DNA of 64,000 nucleotides, taken from assembly GCA_016839585.1 (NCBI GenBank), contig JAEOTZ010000023.1:29370-93369 (forward strand). The letters are read 5' to 3'. The position numbers and the translations under genes were made by a program. This DNA comes from Promethearchaeota archaeon. GTDB taxonomy: Archaea; Asgardarchaeota; Lokiarchaeia; Sigyniarchaeales; SOKP01. The notes beneath the pieces are model-generated. The model searched no databases, was not told the origin of the DNA, and worked only from the letters and a program-made list of their open reading frames with translations. Below, in pieces: positions 37,724 through 45,488 of this stretch (its first letter is position 1; the number at the start of each line of letters is the position of its first letter).

Positions 37724-38152
37724 TTACTCTTTACTTAGAAATGAACTTAAATCCATAAGATCATCTCCTCTTTTAACTTGAATCTTACCTTTTATCCCCT
37801 TTACTTTACGTTCTAAATATATTATCGCATCAACAGGAATCTTTCTCGGAACACCACCTCTCTTCCTAATTATAGCTAATAAGTAATCGATATTTTGTAT
37901 TACATCTGGACTTATTATTTCATTATAAACATTATGATAAATATGAGGTTCCTTATTTTTTAGATTATTTAAATAAGAATAAGCATCGGGACTCAGAACA
38001 AGTTTTAATACAAAATCTACTTTTTCTGAGATTGAGATAATTTTTTCTTGGACAACTTCTTGTTTCTTCTTAGCTTCCATTAAAGCTTTCAATTTCCTTA
38101 AGCGTATCTTTTCTAATTCGTGTTGATCAAGATCTTTATTATTGTTATTCAT
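37724..38152 (-). CDS. PDCD5/TFAR19-like dsDNA-binding protein
   Basis: ELEKIRLRKLKALM...VLKLVLSPDAYSYLNNLK..P; C-terminal KIQVKR. Confidence 0.75.
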   Translation of the reverse strand: MNNNNKDLDQHELEKIRLRKLKALMEAKKKQEVVQEKIISISEKVDFVLKLVLSPDAYSYLNNLKNKEPHIYHNVYNEIISPDVIQNIDYLLAIIRKRGGVPRKIPVDAIIYLERKVKGIKGKIQVKRGDDLMDLSSFLSKE

Positions 38153-38233
38153 TGGGGTTTTTTTCCTTGATTTTTATTCAAGTGATACTTACTCCAGCAT
38201 TATATTTTATAATATCTCTCAAATGAAGAAAAA

Positions 38234-38359
38234 TGGTCCCCTCTGCCGGCCTCGATCCGGCGACCGCTCGGTTTCGGCTGACGTATTGTCATAGGTGGTA
38301 CACCTCATTACGCGATATAATCTACAGCCGAGCACTCTTCCAGTCTGAGTTAAGAGGGG
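38234..38359 (-). tRNA. trnY: tRNA-Tyr(GTA) with a 49-nt intron and encoded CCA
   Basis: CCCCTCT TA ACTC AGACTGGAA GAGT G CTCGG CTGTAG^A CCGAG CGGTC GCCGG ATCGAGG CCGGC AGAGGGG A CCA; C1-G72 identity pair. Confidence 0.95.
38273..38321 (-). other. tRNA-Tyr intron (37/38)
   Basis: Removal restores the 7-nt anticodon loop; relaxed BHB CTGT-AG^A...GCCG-AA^A. Confidence 0.88.
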
Positions 38360-38609
38360 TTTGATTTTTAAAATTAATAATAATTTAATTAATATATTTT
38401 TTTCGATTTTTACACGAAATTATAGAATCTTAAAGTAAAATACTTCATTTAGAGTTTTGCTTAAAATTATAAAATGCATTCTATTAGTTTTATATCAAGT
38501 ATTTTAATTCTGCTTAAATATTGCATAAAGAAAATGATAATACGTAAAACATCAAATTTTTGTTTTTGAATAAAATTATCAAAAAAAGAAAAAATAAACT
38601 TATTTTTAT

Positions 38610-39151
38610 TTAATCCATGGCGTATTTTTTCGTCCAAGCTGCTGCTTTAGCCTCGAATTTCTTCTGAGCACGAAAATATTGCTCACCTGCTTCATGATTC
38701 AATGGGTCGCCTGGATTGAAAAAGGGAGGTTCAACATGCATCATACCTTTTAATGCTTCTATGATATTAGTTAAAGTTTTACTTGGTGTCCACCCACTTG
38801 CCCCAGTCGATGCGTCAACTTTACCTACAAGGTCTGGATTAATTAAGTCAAGACATATATTTAACTTCCCTGGAGGGATAGAACTATCTATATTAGGATG
38901 CCACATGAGTGTCACAGCGTACGCATAAGGGGGTTGGAAAGGGTAATTTTCCAGAATGGAGACAACTATAGTCCACATTTTTCTGGGAATTTTATTTCAA
39001 AAACGAATTTTCCATCTGCGTAAGGAGTTCCTTTTTTACCAATAATAGTTAACCGTAAATGGTCAATTGAACGCCCCCAAGGTTCTAAAATAACGGAAGG
39101 TTCGTTCTTATACGCCTCTATAGCCTCAGTATAATCTGTCTCTTCTCTCAA
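38610..39151 (-). CDS. Ubiquitin-conjugating enzyme E2, two exons (39151-38981 and 38948-38610), 169 aa when spliced
   Basis: GTPYADGKFVFEIKFPE|NYPFQPP..WHPNID..IC*LDL..WTP..L..II..L..P..DPLNHEA; TTG start 6 nt after GGTGA. Confidence 0.92.
38949..38980 (-). other. Putative BHB-type mRNA intron, 32 nt
   Basis: CCAG-AA^A-AATG-TGGAC-TATAGTT-GTCTC-CATT-CTGG-AA^A; contains an in-frame TAG and its length is not a multiple of 3. Confidence 0.85.
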
Positions 39152-39316
39152 AATATTTCACCATTGCTTTTTTGTTAAAGGTTTTTAGCAAATCACCTTA
39201 AATAAAGGAATTTTATTAGATTATATCTTAAATTAATAAAAGGTTTTGTAATTAATTAATATATTTTAAAATAAGTATTTTAGATCATCTTAATTTTTCT
39301 TTTCTATAAGATTTCC

Positions 39317-42292
39317 CTAGTATTTATTATTATTTTGAAAATATCTATCCTCAATCTCTTCATAAGATAATCCTTCATCCTTAAATATTCGTTCGCAAAT
39401 TTCTTCAACCATATCCCAGCGAACTTCACCATTTTCTCTCAAAACACTTTTATAATTAAATTTCTCCAATAAAATTATTTCAGGTCTCATACCAAGAATT
39501 AAATTTTCTTTTGCAATTTTTTTTCTAAGAAGTCTTTTTGTTTCTTTATATGTGAGTCTAGACTTTTCGACAAATAAGTGTGAAATTTTCTTAAAATGAT
39601 TACTCATATAAGAATAAGAATAACCACATTTAGAGGCAATATCTGTCAATGTAATACTTTCATCTATTATCCAAAGAACCCAATCATTAATTGTATACCC
39701 TCTTAATTCACTTCTTAGCTCATTTAGATATTCTCCAATCCTAGACCAATCTAACTTATTTAATTTAACAAGCCTCTTCAAATCATTAAATTGAGCCCCC
39801 TTATACCAATCCTTAAGATTATCCAATAATGCTACTATAGATCTCCTAACAGCTAGACTAATCTCAACTGTATTATAATCATTGACATCCTTTATTAAGC
39901 CTTCAACAACAGGTCTAAAAATAATATCTTGTAAAATCATTAAACCACCCCAAATATCACTGAGTCTATTTTGAATAATATCTTCAGTATATAGCTTTTT
40001 ATATGCTCTTGTAAGAAGATCTGAGATTTCTGGAATATTAAAGCCTAAAGAAACAAGGGCTACTAAATCAAATAAAGGAACATCATAGATTAACGTCTTT
40101 AGACCGGAGCCTCCTCCTCCCGGGACCATATTAAGACCATTTGGATAAACAGTTCCTATAACTTCCTTCCCATTTACAAAATGTACATAATGTGTTGTAA
40201 ATTCGTGTTCAAGTTCTAAAGTAGTCTTTAAATCATCAACTCTTGCTAAATCTCTTTGCGTAAAGTAATTCAATATAATAGTATAGTAAACTCTCATTAA
40301 TATAGATGCATAGACATTATAATTCTTACTTTTAATCTCTCTAAGCTTAATCTCCAAATCTTTAAAATCATTTAATTGTTTATTTTTAATATATCTAAAA
40401 CCACTTGTTAAAACATATTTTTTAATTAAATCGAATTCTAATCTTAAAGCCAAAAGAATAGCTTGTCTAAAATATGGCATTTTCTTAATATTTCCTCTTT
40501 TATTGAATTGAACTATAGTGTTCATTATGTGGTTGATAAATCTTCTACTCTTCGAATGTGTATAGCCAATATATGGCAAATCTTTAAATTTTTGTAACTT
40601 ACACTCAAACAAGTAAATTATATATCTTCTTCTTTTCTTTACATCATTATGTATATTTAAATAATCTTCAATACCTTGCTTTATTAAATTAAACTTACTT
40701 TCTAATACCGCTCTGGATATTTCTATTAAACTTTCATATATATTTTCTCCTTTATGTTCTTTAGAAATTTGATTTAAAATACGATTATATGCTATTAACT
40801 CAACTAAATCGTCAATATTTTTTCGGTTATCAATCTCTTTTTCCTCTGAGTAGAAACATGATTTTTCTTTTTTGAGTAGCTCCCAATTAAAGTTATAATT
40901 AGCGAGATCTTGAATAATAGCTAGTTCTATTTTTAAATGATTCGATTTTTTAGTTCTGGTGTGAGTAATTTTGTAAATAGTATTTATTAGGTTTTGTAGA
41001 AATGATAGAAAGTTTTCTCTATAGAGCATATCAGATTTCAATTTGGCTTGTAATTTTTCATACTCCTTTTGAAATTCTTCTAGAGAGAGGTTATAAAACT
41101 TCTTTAAAAATTCTGGTTTAATTTTTTTTTCTCCTAAAATTTCATCTAAAATCTCACTTGCTAATCTTAGGTTATCAGTGGGATTCAATTTTCTGGGATC
41201 AGATTGTAGTGGAGTTAAATTTAGGGATGATTCAAGAACATAGTGAATAATTCTACTTAGAATCAGTGTTAAATTGAGCCTCAAATAAGGTGAATAATTA
41301 GTATCATTTTCAAAAAGTGCACTTACTTTTAATTCTTCAGCAATTAATTTTTGAAATCCTCTGAGTTTAGAGGAATAACCTTTACTATATGTTAATTTAT
41401 AGATTAGTTTTATTAATGAGCAGACATGGTCAATAAAGCTTTCCCGGTAAACCCAATCGATTTCGAGGTCCTTTCTTAGGCTTCTATATGGTTTAGAGAA
41501 ATTTCTCTTGAAATCATAATTTAGAACTAACGCTGTTATATCTTTAGCAGTGTTTAATGTATATTGCTTAGTCAATTCATTTTTGCTGTGCTTTAAATCT
41601 AAGATGTACCCCGGAGCTGTGATAATTCTATATATTTTTCTACATATTAGTATTGATAAAGAGTAGGAGAATGAGTTTTTAGTTTTAGCATTGATTTTAA
41701 ACCCATATTTTTCTTTTAATTTTTTCACAGCTTTCTGATTATATTTGGTGAGATTGGAGACTTCATAATCTCCATTAATTAATCTAAAAACAAATTTGAT
41801 ATTCTGTATAAAATAAGGCATATAATTGGATTGATTTTTTTTCTTCTTTTTTAAGCCTGAATGGAATTTCTCAAAATAATTTTCAATCTTCTTCTTTGAG
41901 GTTTTAGTCAATAATTCAGCACTATCGGAAGGAAGGGAAAGAGATAATAATAGCTTTCGTAGTTTTTTAGCAAGTTTGAATATCTGCGATTGTTTAAGAT
42001 CCTCTTGGTGCTTTAAAAGTGTCATGATTGAAAAATTAGCTTTCAGCAATTCATAAATCTTCTGATAGGTAAGATTTCTAATTTCTTGGCTTAATTCTTC
42101 AGTAATATAAGAAAATCTCATTATATTCTGTTCTAGTTGTGATTTTTCTTGATTTTGTGCATATACAGAACTATTTAGAGCACCACAAAATTCACAATAT
42201 ATAGGTTTATTGTCTATTTGATTGTGTTTTATAGGTTCACCACATTCTTCACAAGTCAAATTAGATTTGGTATCAGAGGAACTTTTAATCAT
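39317..42292 (-). CDS. Multidomain protein: Zn ribbon, three helical repeats, GIY-YIG-like nuclease, HTH-like tail
   Basis: CEECG..CEFCG; YIIYLF..YIGYT..RRFINH..LELE..YPNGLNMVPGG; ITLTDIASKCGYS. Confidence 0.7.
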   Translation of the reverse strand: MIKSSSDTKSNLTCEECGEPIKHNQIDNKPIYCEFCGALNSSVYAQNQEKSQLEQNIMRFSYITEELSQEIRNLTYQKIYELLKANFSIMTLLKHQEDLKQSQIFKLAKKLRKLLLSLSLPSDSAELLTKTSKKKIENYFEKFHSGLKKKKKNQSNYMPYFIQNIKFVFRLINGDYEVSNLTKYNQKAVKKLKEKYGFKINAKTKNSFSYSLSILICRKIYRIITAPGYILDLKHSKNELTKQYTLNTAKDITALVLNYDFKRNFSKPYRSLRKDLEIDWVYRESFIDHVCSLIKLIYKLTYSKGYSSKLRGFQKLIAEELKVSALFENDTNYSPYLRLNLTLILSRIIHYVLESSLNLTPLQSDPRKLNPTDNLRLASEILDEILGEKKIKPEFLKKFYNLSLEEFQKEYEKLQAKLKSDMLYRENFLSFLQNLINTIYKITHTRTKKSNHLKIELAIIQDLANYNFNWELLKKEKSCFYSEEKEIDNRKNIDDLVELIAYNRILNQISKEHKGENIYESLIEISRAVLESKFNLIKQGIEDYLNIHNDVKKRRRYIIYLFECKLQKFKDLPYIGYTHSKSRRFINHIMNTIVQFNKRGNIKKMPYFRQAILLALRLEFDLIKKYVLTSGFRYIKNKQLNDFKDLEIKLREIKSKNYNVYASILMRVYYTIILNYFTQRDLARVDDLKTTLELEHEFTTHYVHFVNGKEVIGTVYPNGLNMVPGGGGSGLKTLIYDVPLFDLVALVSLGFNIPEISDLLTRAYKKLYTEDIIQNRLSDIWGGLMILQDIIFRPVVEGLIKDVNDYNTVEISLAVRRSIVALLDNLKDWYKGAQFNDLKRLVKLNKLDWSRIGEYLNELRSELRGYTINDWVLWIIDESITLTDIASKCGYSYSYMSNHFKKISHLFVEKSRLTYKETKRLLRKKIAKENLILGMRPEIILLEKFNYKSVLRENGEVRWDMVEEICERIFKDEGLSYEEIEDRYFQNNNKY

Positions 42293-42450
42293 TTTATTCC
42301 TATTGTAGAAATTAATTTCGAGTTAGTTTCACAATAATTCTGTTATTTATTTATAAACAAAAAAAAAAAAAACTTACAAAAAAGTCCATTTTCCTTTAAA
42401 TATAACTAACAAATAGGTGATTAAACAAAAAATAATCATAAAATAGGAAA

Positions 42451-43079
42451 ATGGTCAGCATGAAAAGGAATAAAACTATTGTATTGGTATTAATGGCTAT
42501 AGTACGATAAATAGCCAAATCATTGATTCTATGTGGTATAACTTAAATAACACTTCCATTAATCAGACGTTCTCAGGATTTACTGGTATAATAAATTCAA
42601 GTATATGGGATCAATTTACTGAAGGGAATATCACAATCACATTTTATGCAAATGATACCTTGGGTTATATAGGTTCTGCTGAAGTATTAGTTGAGAAAGA
42701 TACAACATTTCCTATAATAATTATAAACTCACCAATGAATCATGATGTTTTTGCTACGGAATCCCCTAATTTTAACGTTACCATAATAGAAAAGAACCTT
42801 TTATACTCTTGGTATACAATAGAAGGCATAGCAGGAACCTTTCCGTTTTCAGGATTAACAGGTACAATCGACCAAGATGCATGGGATGATGCCCCTGAAG
42901 GAGAAATTACTATAACCTTTTATGCTCAAGATAGAGCAGGGAATATAGAGAGTGAAAGTGTTGTTGTCATGAAAAATATCCCTTCAAAACCAGTAATTCC
43001 AGGATACAATCTATTCTTTCTGTTTGGGATTCTATCAGTTTCAATAATCCTTATAAACAAAAAATTAAAAAAATCTTAA
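42451..43079 (+). pseudogene. Internally deleted surface protein with Ig-like repeat and Loki-CTERM-like sorting tail
   Basis: Signal-peptide stub MVSMKRNKTIVLVLMAIVR* is out of frame with a C-terminal part holding about 1.5 Ig-like repeats (ITITFYANDTLG/ITITFYAQDRAG) and IPGY-TM-KKLKK. Confidence 0.7.
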
Positions 43080-43267
43080 ATTCTAATTTCCTTTTATCAT
43101 TTATTTTTATTTAACTTCTTCTCATAGGGATAAAATGTGGAGGTATTCAGAATTATTTTTTTCTTAGCCTTTTATTAATAGAAAGTTAAGTTAATTCCAA
43201 ATAATTTCCCAAAGACTTAATTTTTCTAGTAAATTTATTTTCTTACTAGTTTTATTGAATTATCATA

Positions 43268-43897
43268 ATGTATAACAACATGAAAAAATTCCCATTTAAA
43301 GGAAAAAAGGTTATCATATTCGATTTGGATGGAACAATCGTAAGATTATCAGCAGATTGGAATTCATTGAAAAATATGATAGAAGAAAATTATGTGGAGA
43401 TTTATGGAGAAAGAGGTGAGTTTAATAGAATTTCTGCTTACCTTAATGATATAGTTGATAAGAAAGATGAAATGAATCTGAAAAAGTTTTTCAATATTAT
43501 CAAACGTTATGAACTTGAAAACATTAAAGAGACCCAACCAATTGAAGAAACTCTTTTCTTTATTAAGAATAAAGAAAAATTTGGTGTAGAAAAGGGAACA
43601 AAATTAGCAATCCTATCTCTTAATACAAGAACTACAATTTTAGAATCTTTAAAATTAGTGAGCTTAATGGAACAAATAGATTATATTATTGGAAGAGAGG
43701 ATGTAAGAAAATGGAAACCAAATCCCGAGGGTCTTTTTAAAATTCAAGATCACTACAAGATTAAGAAAGAAGAAATGATATTTTTTGGAGATTTACAAAA
43801 CGATATTCAAACTGGTGAAAGAGCAGGAATAGATACCTTTTTCATCGATGACCTAATAAATCTTGTAAAAATTTATAAGAAAAACCGAAATATTTAA
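43268..43897 (+). CDS. HAD-superfamily phosphatase
   Basis: IFDLDGT; LSLN; KPNPEG; FGDLQND..AG. Confidence 0.92.
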   Translation: MYNNMKKFPFKGKKVIIFDLDGTIVRLSADWNSLKNMIEENYVEIYGERGEFNRISAYLNDIVDKKDEMNLKKFFNIIKRYELENIKETQPIEETLFFIKNKEKFGVEKGTKLAILSLNTRTTILESLKLVSLMEQIDYIIGREDVRKWKPNPEGLFKIQDHYKIKKEEMIFFGDLQNDIQTGERAGIDTFFIDDLINLVKIYKKNRNI

Positions 43898-43901
43898 AGA
43901 T

Positions 43902-45488
43902 TTACATAAATGTAATTACGACATTATATTTTTTTATTTCTGATTCTACTAAAGCTTTGCCTAAAGGGCTTAAAGTCACAATTCCATTGCTTTTTATTTT
44001 TAAAGTAGTCAATTTTACATTAGGATCCTTCATTGAAGGTATATAAGGATTCCAATATATTTCTTTTGTCATTGGGTTGGTGATCATCCATAATTCTGGA
44101 TCTAATTTATATCCCGTTATCTCCATAGCTTTAAAAACATAACCAACATCAGCATCAAAAGGAACTACAATTTGTACGTTCTCTTCACCTTCAATTTTTC
44201 CGCAAGCTAGGCAATCTTCTCGTTTCATAATATTTAAATGGTCAAATTGACCATAAATACCATTATAGTTTACATATGGAGGATCCATCGGAGGACCGAT
44301 GTTTCTTCCTTTAATTCTAAATAAAAGCTTTAAAGCCTCTTGAGATTGTATACTAGAGATAACTGAGCTAACTGATTGTATGGCAGCGATTTTATTACCC
44401 AAAATATTTTCCATTTCTTCAAATTTGTAATCTGGTCCGAACGTTTCTTTTATATTTTTCTTCCATTCTTCTATTTCTTCTTCGGATAAAAGCTTTCTTT
44501 TCTCTGGAGGCACATTTTCGTCAAACACTCTTTCCCTTAATTTGTACAGTTCCTCTTCGGCTAATTCTTTCAATTTAATAACTTCATCGTTTAAATTAAG
44601 ATCAGGTTTATGACCAAACTTTTTTTCAAATTCTACTTCTGCTTTAATAACGCAATGATTCCTATTCCGTGGTAACCCTTTTAAGGTACAAGCAGCAACT
44701 AATTTATCATCAGCAGGAGGAATTGGAACTAGACATCTATAACAAGGTGTGATATTTAATAATCTAGGAGCATATTCTTTTTCAAAAACATTTTCAATTT
44801 CTTTTCTAACTTTTTTTTTAACAGGTTCAATTATCTCTTTTTTTATTCGCTCGATTCGATCTTCTAATTCTTCTATTCTTTTCATTGCCGCAAAATATTC
44901 AGGTAATTCAGTTTCATTGATCTCCCATAACTTAGATTCTACTAGGTTATCAATTTCACTCTCTCTATCTTTGTATTGTAAACCAGATCCTTCAGGAATC
45001 ACAATCTGAACGTGACCTTCGAAACCTACAGTCCCTCCCTCAACCATTAGTTTTTTCAATCTCAAGCAAATTTTATTCAAATCTAGTCGTGCATTAAAGT
45101 TATCTAAAGCAGCGATAACTACATCTGCCTCTTCATATACAGACATAGGTAATTTTTGGAGCTTTTCAAAATAATAGTCAACTTTCAAGTATGGATTTAT
45201 TTCTTTCAATCTCTCCGCCGCAACTTCAGCTTTCGGTCGTCCTTCATCTCCTGGTTTAAATAACATTTGACGTGATAAATTCGATGTTTCAATAGTATCT
45301 AAATCCACAAGAATCAGTTTGCCAATGCCCATCAGAGCGAAATCTTTAGCAATTTCACAGCCTAAAGCCCCTACTCCAATAATTAGGATACAACCATCAT
45401 CTAATATGTCTTGAGACCAACCATCTATTAATTGTTGCCTCGCAAACATACGAGATTTAAAAAAGTCTTTATTTTTTTGTTCTATCAT
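43902..45488 (-). CDS. Ubiquitin-activating enzyme E1-like (ThiF/UBA)
   Basis: GVGALGCE; DLDTIETSNLSRQMLF; LDNFNAR; PCYRC; catalytic ACTLKGLPRNRNHC; CLACG; UFD-like C-terminus. Confidence 0.92.
   Translation of the reverse strand: MIEQKNKDFFKSRMFARQQLIDGWSQDILDDGCILIIGVGALGCEIAKDFALMGIGKLILVDLDTIETSNLSRQMLFKPGDEGRPKAEVAAERLKEINPYLKVDYYFEKLQKLPMSVYEEADVVIAALDNFNARLDLNKICLRLKKLMVEGGTVGFEGHVQIVIPEGSGLQYKDRESEIDNLVESKLWEINETELPEYFAAMKRIEELEDRIERIKKEIIEPVKKKVRKEIENVFEKEYAPRLLNITPCYRCLVPIPPADDKLVAACTLKGLPRNRNHCVIKAEVEFEKKFGHKPDLNLNDEVIKLKELAEEELYKLRERVFDENVPPEKRKLLSEEEIEEWKKNIKETFGPDYKFEEMENILGNKIAAIQSVSSVISSIQSQEALKLLFRIKGRNIGPPMDPPYVNYNGIYGQFDHLNIMKREDCLACGKIEGEENVQIVVPFDADVGYVFKAMEITGYKLDPELWMITNPMTKEIYWNPYIPSMKDPNVKLTTLKIKSNGIVTLSPLGKALVESEIKKYNVVITFM

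What the first reader, a model, noticed from the sequence alone, without database searches (positions are those of the whole stretch)
38610..39151. Ubiquitin E2 gene split by a tRNA-type (BHB) intron: candidate mRNA splicing switch in an Asgard ubiquitin system
Seen: the E2 lies in two frames. The 32-nt insert (38980-38949, minus) sits inside the conserved FPE-NYP motif. It folds as central helix CCAG/CTGG (4 perfect bp), a 3-nt AAA bulge, inner helix AATG/CATT plus GGAC/GTCT, and a second AAA bulge. Cutting after the 2nd nt of each bulge gives TTC CCA GAA|AAT TAC CCT = FPENYP and one 169-aa ORF with HPN and the catalytic Cys. The unspliced RNA stops at an intronic TAG after 61 aa. The outer exon-exon helix does not pair, so the motif is relaxed. 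A flanking GAAAA repeat makes the boundary ambiguous by a few nt, but the product is the same. Known: EndA cuts BHB bulges at these positions and RtcB ligates; archaeal mRNA introns are rare, with crenarchaeal cbf5 the classic case. Inference: EndA/RtcB splicing may gate ubiquitin conjugation, analogous to tRNA-ligase-dependent HAC1/XBP1 splicing. I do not know of this being described for an Asgard E2.
Basis: partly seen in the sequence, partly recalled or inferred. Interest (0 to 1): 0.95.

Follow-up and report, generated by a model that had tools for sequence, protein, structure and literature searches.

The report
Spliced tRNA-type mini-intron in Asgard E2
A 32-base insert that breaks the ubiquitin-conjugating (E2) gene of a Loki-type Asgard archaeon is a tRNA-style intron that public RNA data show precisely removed, one of many such mini-introns in these E2 genes, but nothing indicates it works as a regulatory switch.

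Summary
Observation confirmed. On the minus strand a UBC-fold E2 gene is split at 38949-38980 by a 32-nt insert. Both halves hit Pfam UQ_con and meet at profile position 56.

The insert has canonical bulge-helix-bulge (BHB) geometry: CCAG/CTGG helix, two AAA bulges each 3' of its helix strand, an inner hairpin, and no outer helix. Cutting after the 2nd bulge base gives FPE|NYP and an intact 169-aa E2.

Support:
- Metatranscriptome contigs from two studies skip exactly these 32 nt with no flank mismatch, while DNA runs hold the unspliced form.
- A motif-free survey found 22 inserts (21-39 nt) at 7 sites in orthologous Loki E2 genes, up to five per gene. 21 obey the same cut rule, with compensatory changes in the exon-intron helix.
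- dN/dS is 0.027.
- The genome encodes an (alpha-beta)2 EndA with the broad-specificity loop, and RtcB.

The "splicing switch" idea is unsupported. The intron is missing from 31 of 36 congeneric species, only spliced RNA was seen, and a separate Ub-E1-E2 operon is intact.

This scan had already noted E2 BHB introns on other genomes and other mRNA mini-introns in this genome. No paper on this was found; cbf5 and one Haloferax 5'UTR are the documented precedents.

The parts
38981..39151 (-). E2 exon 1 (TTG start at 39151; codons 1-57, ending ...F P E)
   Evidence: Pfam UQ_con profile 15-56, E 1.7e-6. The spliced alignment to ortholog P0002 places the break at aa56/57.
38949..38980 (-). 32-nt BHB mini-intron. 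It contains the in-frame TAG that ends the unspliced 61-aa ORF, and an ATG that opens the 122-aa ORF 38610-38978.
   Evidence: Sequence. Motif-free spliced alignment and BHB register. RNA contigs of runs X9 and X17 skip 32 nt here, with a 5-nt positional ambiguity.
38610..38948 (-). E2 exon 2 (N Y P F Q P P ... HPN ... catalytic Cys in NICLD ... stop TAA)
   Evidence: Pfam UQ_con profile 56-139, E 6e-14. It is 97% identical to the full-length 172-aa ortholog P0001.
38983..38986 (-). Central helix H, 5' strand CCAG (exonic: part of the Pro and Glu codons)
   Evidence: Pairs 4/4 with CTGG at 38951-38954. Pair probabilities are 0.76-0.97.
38951..38954 (-). Central helix H, 3' strand CTGG (intronic)
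38980..38982 (-). Bulge 1 (AA|A). The predicted 5' cut lies between 38981 and 38980.
   Evidence: A cut after the 2nd bulge base restores the frame.
38948..38950 (-). Bulge 2 (AA|A). The predicted 3' cut lies between 38949 and 38948.
38955..38979 (-). Inner helix h' and loop: AATG-T-GGAC / loop TATAGTT / GTCT-C-CATT
   Evidence: MFE and centroid fold. Pair probabilities are 0.6-0.97 for three of the four h' pairs scored; the pair next to the bulge competes with an alternative register.

Best explanation
The E2 gene is functional and carries a 32-nt archaeal bulge-helix-bulge intron of the relaxed HBh' type (no exon-exon outer helix).

Proposed mechanism:
- In the pre-mRNA the last exon-1 bases CCAG pair with intronic CUGG. 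The intron hairpin stacks on this helix, leaving two AAA bulges.
- The organism's heterotetrameric (alpha-beta)2 splicing endonuclease EndA cuts after the second base of each bulge.
- RtcB joins the exons and probably circularises the intron.
- The product is ...F-P-E|N-Y-P... and a 169-aa E2 with HPN and the catalytic Cys.

Splicing is most likely constitutive housekeeping imposed by an intron gained recently in this lineage. It is one member of a dynamic population of 21-39-nt mini-introns that recur at a few sites of Lokiarchaeial E2 genes and occur in other mRNAs of this genome.

Shown here: anatomy, frame restoration, RNA lacking the 32 nt, presence of the enzymes, comparative rule and covariation, purifying selection.
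Inferred: that EndA and RtcB are the acting enzymes, the exact cut positions within the 6-position ambiguity, and constitutive rather than regulated splicing.
For: 1. Anatomy and frame. The Pfam halves meet at profile position 56. Canonical-register BHB, and a spliced 169-aa ORF.

2. RNA. Contigs from two metatranscriptome studies skip 32 nt at 38946->38979 with 5 nt of slack. X9 is 151 nt and X17 is 161 nt, and neither has a mismatch in its flanks. No RNA contig covers the insert. DNA runs X1-X4 hold 94-100% of the 31-mers of the unspliced stretch. The nearest intron-less relative differs at 48 of 510 CDS positions, so the RNA contigs are not from it.

3. Comparative. A motif-free protein-guided alignment found 22 distinct inserts at 7 codon sites in orthologous E2 loci. 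21 have a 4/4-paired H helix exactly where a cut after the 2nd bulge base restores the frame. The null rate is 3.5%; P is about 2e-21 for the first 15 of 16. Four different introns share the window's site (the window, L002, L003/L157/L295, L383), with unrelated inner stems that still pair.

4. Covariation. At the VE|PP site the exon-intron helix is paired in 28 of 28 cells, and 2 of 4 pairs show changes on both sides (C-G to U-A, G-C to A-U). Slid controls pair 0-64%.

5. Selection. dN/dS is 0.027 against the nearest ortholog (exon 1 0.052, exon 2 0.018). 43 of 48 differences are at third codon positions.

6. Enzymes. There are two EndA paralogues. One aligns end to end with the Aeropyrum pernix catalytic subunit 3P1Z_B, including the loop segment with KPR. 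In my reading of the ORF sequences, not from an alignment, the other has Tyr where the catalytic His should be. There is one RtcB. The literature says Asgard EndA is (alpha-beta)2 with the L1 loop, and that this type cuts non-canonical motifs (PMC5829648).

7. A thioredoxin gene of the same genome is split the same way by a 25-nt insert: Pfam halves 17-63 (E 5.9e-8) and 68-87 (weak, E 0.043, below the Pfam cut-off).
Against: - The outer helix of the strict hBHBh' motif is absent.
- The fold alone is only marginally better than shuffles (z -1.94).
- The RNA evidence is two short, low-depth contigs (depth 2-3.1) from libraries that were not checked for DNA carry-over.
- A 5-nt direct repeat (GAAAA) flanks the hairpin. 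This is the context in which reverse transcriptase can skip a hairpin, or in which an intron-less allele could arise.
- The tool did not report whether the joined form also exists in DNA runs (table 5b).
- No biochemical data exist for this organism's EndA.
Confidence: 0.85

Rival explanations
1. Regulated splicing switch. The intron is removed only under some conditions, so that EndA/RtcB activity gates production of active E2 and hence ubiquitin-like conjugation, by analogy with HAC1/XBP1.
For: Unspliced RNA would give a dead 61-aa product. The intron sits in the conserved FPxxYPxxPP motif. The machinery is shared with tRNA maturation. Nothing tested here rules out condition-dependent efficiency.
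Against: - Only the spliced form appears in the two RNA runs that cover the site.
- 31 of 36 species of the genus have an uninterrupted E2, so the intron is not a conserved regulatory element.
- Other lineages carry 1-5 introns at other sites of the same gene.
- At least one unrelated gene of this genome is split likewise.
- An intact Ub-E1-E2 operon exists elsewhere.
- No dedicated sensor nuclease is implied.
Confidence: 0.08
2. Broken gene or assembly artefact. The 32 nt are a disabling insertion (pseudogene) or a mis-assembly. The RNA contigs come from an intron-less allele, from DNA carry-over, or from reverse-transcriptase skipping between the GAAAA repeats.
For: The gene is frameshifted as it stands. 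The junction is flanked by a 5-nt direct repeat (both = 5). The RNA contigs are short and shallow.
Against: - Four DNA runs hold the insert-containing words.
- The exons are under strong purifying selection with no other lesion.
- The insert has the exact BHB register, which random inserts show 3.5% of the time.
- 21 other inserts in orthologues obey the same rule, with compensatory changes.
- A genuinely decayed copy looks different: L121 has small frame-shifting gaps (the aligner and 16 nt), in-frame stops and no BHB.
- Neither RNA run shows any unspliced contig.
Confidence: 0.04
3. Translational bypass. Ribosomes take off at the GAA codon ending exon 1 and land on the GAA 32 nt downstream, as in phage T4 gene 60. 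This would give the same FPE-NYP protein without RNA splicing.
For: Matching GAA codons precede both boundaries, and a hairpin lies between them.
Against: - The 32 nt are missing at the RNA level.
- No stop codon follows the take-off codon directly.
- In my reading of the junctions, most other E2 inserts lack matching take-off and landing codons yet keep the BHB register, for example CTCC AT|T ... GGAG AA|A in L001 and L047.
Confidence: 0.02

Closest known systems
cbf5 pre-mRNA intron of Crenarchaeota (Watanabe 2002; Yokobori 2009, PMC2738675)
   Same: A BHB-type intron inside an archaeal protein-coding sequence. It is removed by the tRNA-splicing endonuclease and ligase, occurs in organisms with (alpha-beta)2 EndA, and shows lineage-specific presence and absence.
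   Different: cbf5 has one intron at one site, inherited from the ancestor of two orders with secondary losses. Here the host gene is an E2 in an Asgard archaeon. The intron is sporadic within a genus. Orthologues carry introns at 7 sites and up to five per 510-nt gene.
BHB intron in the 5' UTR of Haloferax volcanii HVO_1309 mRNA (PMC7714728)
   Same: An mRNA substrate of the archaeal splicing endonuclease. That paper states that cbf5 was the only other additional BHB intron reported up to then.
   Different: It lies in an untranslated leader and is cut by an alpha'2 enzyme that needs the strict motif. The E2 intron interrupts the coding frame and lacks the outer helix.
Multiply interrupted tRNA genes of Asgard archaea and Thermoproteales (bioRxiv 10.64898/2026.10.13.758758; PMC5829648)
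   Same: Same motif, same enzymes, many non-canonical positions, repeated independent gains, and a broad-specificity EndA with the L1 loop. A tRNA-Tyr gene with a 49-nt intron lies about 250 nt downstream of this E2.
   Different: Those substrates are tRNAs, where the mature fold supplies part of the motif. Here the exon half of the helix is constrained by codons. The tRNA preprint does not mention mRNA.
HAC1/XBP1 unconventional mRNA splicing in eukaryotes
   Same: Spliceosome-independent excision of a short frame-shifting intron from an mRNA, with exon joining by a tRNA ligase (RtcB in metazoans).
   Different: There the cut is made by the stress sensor IRE1 at paired stem-loops and is regulated. 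Here the expected nuclease is the housekeeping EndA and no regulation is shown. The resemblance is in outline only; this is not a member of that system.

Membership tests
Archaeal BHB (tRNA-type) intron | 4-bp central helix flanked by two 3-nt bulges on opposite strands, each bulge 3' of its helix strand | tested here: met
   CCAG/CTGG with AAA and AAA bulges. Pair probabilities 0.76-0.97.
Archaeal BHB (tRNA-type) intron | Cuts after the 2nd base of each bulge give the functional mature RNA | tested here: met
   Gives FPE|NYP and a 169-aa ORF. The Pfam halves meet at profile position 56. The same rule holds for 21 of 22 inserts in orthologues.
Archaeal BHB (tRNA-type) intron | Inner helix h' closing the intron | tested here: met
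   4 + 4 bp hairpin in the MFE and centroid folds.
Archaeal BHB (tRNA-type) intron | Outer helix h between the exons (strict hBHBh' form) | tested here: not met
   0 bp adjacent to the bulges. It is therefore the relaxed HBh' form, which needs a broad-specificity EndA.
Archaeal BHB (tRNA-type) intron | Host encodes a splicing endonuclease able to cut relaxed motifs, and an RtcB ligase | tested here: met
   Two EndA paralogues. The alpha-like one matches A. pernix 3P1Z_B over its full length, including the loop with KPR. By my reading of the ORF sequences, the beta-like one lacks the catalytic His. One RtcB. Enzyme-type properties are from PMC5829648.
Archaeal BHB (tRNA-type) intron | Intron absent from mature RNA | tested here: met
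   Two RNA-run contigs from two studies skip the 32 nt with no flank mismatch. Caveats: low depth and no DNA control for the joined form.
Archaeal BHB (tRNA-type) intron | Helix maintained by compensatory change | tested here: met
   At the VE|PP site of orthologues, 2 of 4 H pairs show changes on both sides and 100% of cells are paired. At the window's own site H_A is CCAG in three introns and TCCC/GGGA in a fourth.
Archaeal BHB (tRNA-type) intron | Cleavage by EndA in vitro, 2',3'-cyclic phosphate ends, circular intron | not testable with these tools
   Needs enzyme assays or raw-read searches for the back-spliced intron.
UBC-fold ubiquitin-conjugating enzyme (E2, PF00179) | UBC domain with the HPN motif and a catalytic Cys | tested here: met
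   Both halves are above the Pfam cut-off. HPN and NICLD are present, at columns invariant in 15 orthologues.
Regulated unconventional splicing switch (HAC1/XBP1-like) | Intron conserved in orthologues; spliced and unspliced pools that shift with condition; dedicated sensor nuclease | tested here: not met
   Intron absent from 31 of 36 congeneric species. Only spliced contigs seen. Dependence on condition could not be tested.
Intron paired with a free-standing homing endonuclease (collaborative homing) | Nuclease gene next to the intron-bearing gene; nuclease and intron present or absent together | tested here: inconclusive
   - The 991-aa ORF 165 nt upstream has only a sub-threshold GIY-YIG match (E 0.026).
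- Its paralogues carry LAGLIDADG_3.
- Relative G061 lacks both the intron and this ORF at the locus.
- The neighbours of other intron-bearing E2 genes show no nuclease domain.
- Two paralogues adjoin uninterrupted genes.

The most novel reading that the evidence does not exclude
The E2 intron belongs to a mobile population of BHB mini-introns that are gained and lost repeatedly in Asgard protein-coding genes, at least partly by DNA-level spread assisted by neighbouring free-standing homing-endonuclease-like genes.

In this window the intron-bearing E2 lies in a segment that is inverted relative to a close relative. The segment is more diverged than its flanks (85-87% against 95-96%) and sits next to a multi-copy 991-aa ORF, absent from that locus in the relative, whose family carries LAGLIDADG or GIY-YIG-like domains.

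If true, archaea closest to eukaryotes would have intron-rich, polymorphic protein genes serviced by the tRNA-splicing machinery, together with a mechanism for intron dispersal.
Probability: 0.15. Interest if true: 0.9.

Novelty: new variant of a known kind. Interest (0 to 1): 0.8.

Why it matters
In the papers I could search, splicing of archaeal mRNAs by the tRNA machinery is documented for cbf5 in Crenarchaeota and for one Haloferax 5' UTR.

Here an Asgard archaeon shows it in a eukaryote-signature gene (a ubiquitin E2), with RNA-level evidence. The same gene in related lineages holds up to five such introns at recurrent sites. This matters in three ways:

- Gene callers split or truncate real Asgard genes. 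Many database entries for this E2 are such fragments.
- It gives a tractable system for asking how introns are gained, kept and lost in coding sequence when half of the splice motif is made of codons.
- It shows that, in the closest prokaryotic relatives of eukaryotes, protein genes can tolerate multiple spliceosome-independent introns. That bears on scenarios for the origin of split genes and on the ancestry of tRNA-ligase-dependent mRNA splicing.

It does not, on present evidence, reveal a new way of regulating ubiquitination.

Tried and rejected
- The default tRNA scan and Rfam (gathering threshold on the whole window; E-value mode on 38100-38620) found nothing. ARAGORN with introns allowed then found tRNA-Tyr.

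- A loose DNA pattern (CCAGAA...CTGGANAAYTAYCC) scanned against genome and metagenome contigs returned almost only chance matches and used two scans. Only L157 and L295 were relevant. A motif-free exon pattern found L157 and L383.

- My genome-wide, decoy-controlled scan for ORF-fusing BHB inserts had little power.
  - Structure plus open frames alone: 868 real against 900 decoy, and 80 against 92.
  - GC-rich helices: 570 against 475.
  - With reciprocal-stop and coding-potential filters: 39 against 19, and 7 against 0.
  - A consensus-bulge version: 50 against 39, and it even dropped the E2 intron itself.
  - The scan recovered the thioredoxin and dnaG candidates but cannot give a census. 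Two top candidates (C10, C58) were gene junctions.

- No second copy of the intron sequence exists in the genome.

- No co-conversion signature was seen: differences from the nearest ortholog are not concentrated near the intron site.

- The 991-aa ORF has no homologue beside the other E2 loci. The large ORFs beside the E2 genes of L001, L003 and L122 show only HTH hints.

- L121 looks like a decayed copy, and L124 is masked by N.

- RNA run X18 carried only relatives (intron-less or spliced forms, 3-9 mismatches). X8, probably DNA, stops at 38985. Neither is used as evidence.

- Parts of the window without RNA cover say nothing.

Full report
**What is in the sequence**

On the minus strand an E2 gene starts with TTG at 39151. 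It reads 57 codons to ...F-P-E, and then runs into 32 extra bases (38980-38949) that shift the frame and bring a TAG. The second part, 38948-38610, continues N-Y-P-F-Q-P-P through HPN and the NICLD cysteine to a TAA.

Pfam UQ_con matches the first piece at profile positions 15-56 and the second at 56-139. Nothing of the domain is missing or duplicated.

The insert and its flanks read, 5' to 3': CCAG AA|A AATG T GGAC TATAGTT GTCT C CATT CTGG AA|A. On both strands the order is helix, then bulge. That is the two-fold symmetry of the archaeal bulge-helix-bulge motif. Cutting after the second base of each bulge removes exactly 32 nt and yields a 169-aa protein. A GAAAA repeat lets the boundary slide over six positions without changing the product. 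No exon-exon outer helix forms, so this is the relaxed HBh' form.

The hairpin is the minimum-free-energy and centroid fold, but it is only modestly better than shuffles (z -1.94). It persists in 70-230-nt contexts with H-pair probabilities of 0.76-0.97.

**RNA and DNA evidence**

Seven DNA runs hold at least half of the sampled 31-mers of 38560-39200. Four of them, from one study, hold 94-100%; three of these four may be the source sample. The insert is therefore in the DNA.

I laid four runs filed as metatranscriptomic on the region; one of them (X8) is probably DNA. Contigs from two different studies join 38946 to 38979, a skip of 32 nt with 5 nt of positional slack. X9 is 151 nt and X17 is 161 nt, and neither has a single mismatch in its flanks. 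No RNA contig covers the insert.

The nearest intron-less relative differs at 48 of 510 coding positions, so these contigs come from the window's own population.

Caveats:
- The contigs are shallow (depth 2-3.1).
- The libraries were not checked for DNA.
- The tool did not report whether the joined form occurs in DNA runs.
- A hairpin between short direct repeats is a context where reverse transcriptase can skip.

**The same gene elsewhere**

Most orthologues are uninterrupted 169-aa proteins, including 31 of 36 species of the same genus. But many database "proteins" are fragments that end or start in odd sequence at a few fixed places.

I fetched those contigs and aligned a reference E2 protein to the DNA with a dynamic programme. 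It allows any 12-80-nt gap and knows nothing about RNA structure. It found 22 distinct inserts of 21-39 nt at seven codon sites:

| Site | Loci |
|---|---|
| FPE\|NYP | the window, L002, L003/L157/L295, L383 |
| PP\|YA | L001, L047, L383, L385 |
| WH\|PN | L001 |
| GA\|SG | L001, L002, L120 |
| GM\|MH | L001 |
| VE\|PP | L003, L122, L123, L079, L384, L386, L387 |
| AG\|EQ | L001, L002 |

One contig, L001, has five inserts in a single 510-nt gene. For L002 the AG|EQ insert was identified by reading the sequence, because it lies at the contig end and the aligner did not reach it.

In 21 of the 22, the four exon bases that lie two bases upstream of the 5' boundary pair 4/4 with the four intron bases that lie two bases upstream of the 3' boundary. 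This is the register the cut rule demands. Random insert positions in the same genes do so 3.5% of the time, sliding included. That gives P of about 2e-21 for the first 15 of 16.

The four introns at the window's site have different inner stems that all pair. The window and L003 introns are recognisably related; those of L002 and L383 are not.

At the VE|PP site a synonymous His-codon change in the exon (CAC to CAT) is matched by G to A in the intron. A second pair changes G-C to A-U. All 28 cells are paired, 2 of 4 pairs are compensatory, and slid controls pair 0-64%.

A truly decayed copy, L121, looks different: small frame-shifting gaps (the aligner and 16 nt), in-frame stops and no BHB.

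**Is the gene alive, and are the enzymes there**

Against the nearest orthologue dN/dS is 0.027 (exon 1 0.052, exon 2 0.018), and 43 of 48 differences are at third positions.

The genome (3.45 Mb, 99% complete) has two EndA paralogues and one RtcB. One EndA aligns over its full length with the catalytic subunit of the Aeropyrum pernix heterotetramer (3P1Z_B, E 7e-36), including the loop segment with KPR. In my reading of the two ORF sequences (no alignment was made for this position), the other has Tyr in place of the catalytic His, as expected of a structural beta subunit.

[quoted passage not shown] This fits an intron with no outer helix.

A tRNA-Tyr gene with a 49-nt intron lies about 250 nt downstream on the same strand.

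**Switch or housekeeping**

Nothing supports condition-dependent splicing.
- The intron is sporadic within the genus.
- Other lineages have introns elsewhere in the gene.
- A thioredoxin gene in this genome is split the same way. A 25-nt insert was recovered by my own scan, with Pfam halves 17-63 and 68-87, the second a weak hit (E 0.043, below cut-off). A 40-nt dnaG candidate also came up, but Pfam could not confirm it as one split gene.
- The canonical Ub-E1-E2 operon on contig C61 is intact.

This E2 belongs to a second, conserved E2-HAD-E1 neighbourhood without a ubiquitin gene.

My decoy-controlled genome scan was too noisy for a census. Earlier notes of this scan list further candidates in this genome and E2 introns in other genomes. 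I treat those as leads only.

**Context that may bear on origin**

A relative, G061, is 95-96% identical to the window on both flanks. It has an intron-less E2 in the opposite orientation directly before the HAD gene. In the window the E2 is inverted, and about 3.9 kb lies between it and HAD that is absent from that locus in G061. The E2 and tRNA segment is only 85-87% identical.

The extra DNA encodes a 991-aa ORF ending 165 nt upstream of the E2.
- Its first 490 residues recur in two other ORFs of this genome and at two other G061 loci.
- One paralogue and a more distant relative carry LAGLIDADG_3 domains.
- That distant relative ends 218 nt before another candidate mini-intron.
- The 991-aa ORF itself has only a sub-threshold GIY-YIG match (E 0.026).

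However, two paralogues adjoin intact genes, the neighbours of other intron-bearing E2 genes show no nuclease domain, and there is no co-conversion gradient. I rate it a lead at about 15%.

**Comparison with what is known**

The mechanism is that of the crenarchaeal cbf5 mRNA intron (PMC2738675). PMC7714728 (2020) states that cbf5 was the only additional BHB intron reported until its own Haloferax 5'-UTR case.

Five full-text searches found no paper on BHB introns in Asgard protein genes. A 2026 preprint on Asgard tRNA introns does not mention mRNA.

What is new is the host gene and lineage, the RNA evidence, and the regime: small, polymorphic, recurrent, and up to five per gene. The likeness to HAC1/XBP1 is in outline only.

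**Verdict**

The intron reading is strongly supported (0.85). The switch reading is unsupported (0.08). I class it as a new variant of a known kind, with interest 0.8.

Noticed in passing
window 38234-38359 (-): tRNA-Tyr(GTA) gene with a 49-nt intron in the anticodon loop, about 250 nt downstream of the E2 on the same strand. The default tRNA scan and Rfam missed it; ARAGORN found it only with introns allowed. The region is conserved next to the E2 in L295 and G061. I could not settle the exact splice register (36/37 or 37/38).
   Followed up: partly
window 39317-42292 (-): 991-aa ORF ending 165 nt upstream of the E2. It has an N-terminal zinc ribbon, a sub-threshold GIY-YIG match at residues 557-595 (E 0.026), and a C-terminal HTH. 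Residues 1-490 are 79-86% identical to two other ORFs of this genome (C75, 907 aa; C78, 978 aa with LAGLIDADG_3), and part of it matches two other loci of relative G061. It looks like a multi-copy, modular, nuclease-like gene family.
   Followed up: partly
window 38233-43170 compared with G061:C18:56594-61004: Relative G061 is 95-96% identical on both flanks. It has the E2 in the opposite orientation, intron-less and directly before the HAD gene. The window has an inverted E2, and about 3.9 kb of extra DNA lies between it and HAD. The E2 and tRNA-Tyr segments are only 85-87% identical. G061 in turn has about 3.2 kb of extra DNA beside the tRNA. This is a rearrangement hot spot next to a tRNA gene.
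   Followed up: partly
L001:71-718: An orthologous E2 on a 2.4-kb metagenome contig carries five inserts (31, 30, 21, 30 and 29 nt) in one 510-nt gene. Four are canonical BHB. The fifth (GM|MH) has a 9-bp hairpin but no central-helix pairing; instead an exon-exon helix GCATG/CATGT flanks it.
   Followed up: partly
G000:C25:15416-15440 (+), locus L367: Thioredoxin gene split by a 25-nt BHB insert (GGCG AA|A ... CGCT AA|A). Pfam Thioredoxin matches profile 17-63 before the insert and 68-87 (weak, E 0.043) after it.
   Followed up: partly
G000:C61:45771-45810 (-), locus L368: Candidate 40-nt BHB insert (GGCC AG|A ... GGCT AA|A). Removing it joins ...DIVGAIFGQ to TEGLL... upstream of a Toprim domain (DnaG-like). 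The 44-aa first exon has no Pfam hit.
   Followed up: partly
window 43902-45488 (-) and 43268-43897 (+): A 528-aa ThiF-family (E1-like) gene and a HAD hydrolase gene. E2-HAD-E1 is a conserved neighbourhood in many relatives, with no ubiquitin gene nearby. The genome's Ub-E1-E2 operon is elsewhere (C61:139101-141209).
   Followed up: partly
window 38610-38978 (-): The intron contains an ATG in the frame of exon 2, giving a 122-aa ORF (MWTIVVSILENYPF...). Gene callers report this ORF instead of the E2. L002 has the same feature, L003 does not, so it is probably chance.
   Followed up: no
G000:C89:92542, C89:93552 (+) and C49:2604 (-): Three near-identical 18-nt segments (CAGG AA|N ..GTTTCTCTA CTTG AG|G) came up in the BHB scan inside glycine/alanine-rich repetitive frames. 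It is unclear whether they are tiny introns or part of a repeat protein.
   Followed up: no
L003:669-2477 (-) and L122:1174-2589 (-): Two intron-bearing E2 genes from different contigs each have a large ORF tail to tail with them, where intron-less loci have the HAD gene. The two ORFs are 45% identical to each other. They show only helix-turn-helix hints and are not related to the window's 991-aa ORF.
   Followed up: partly
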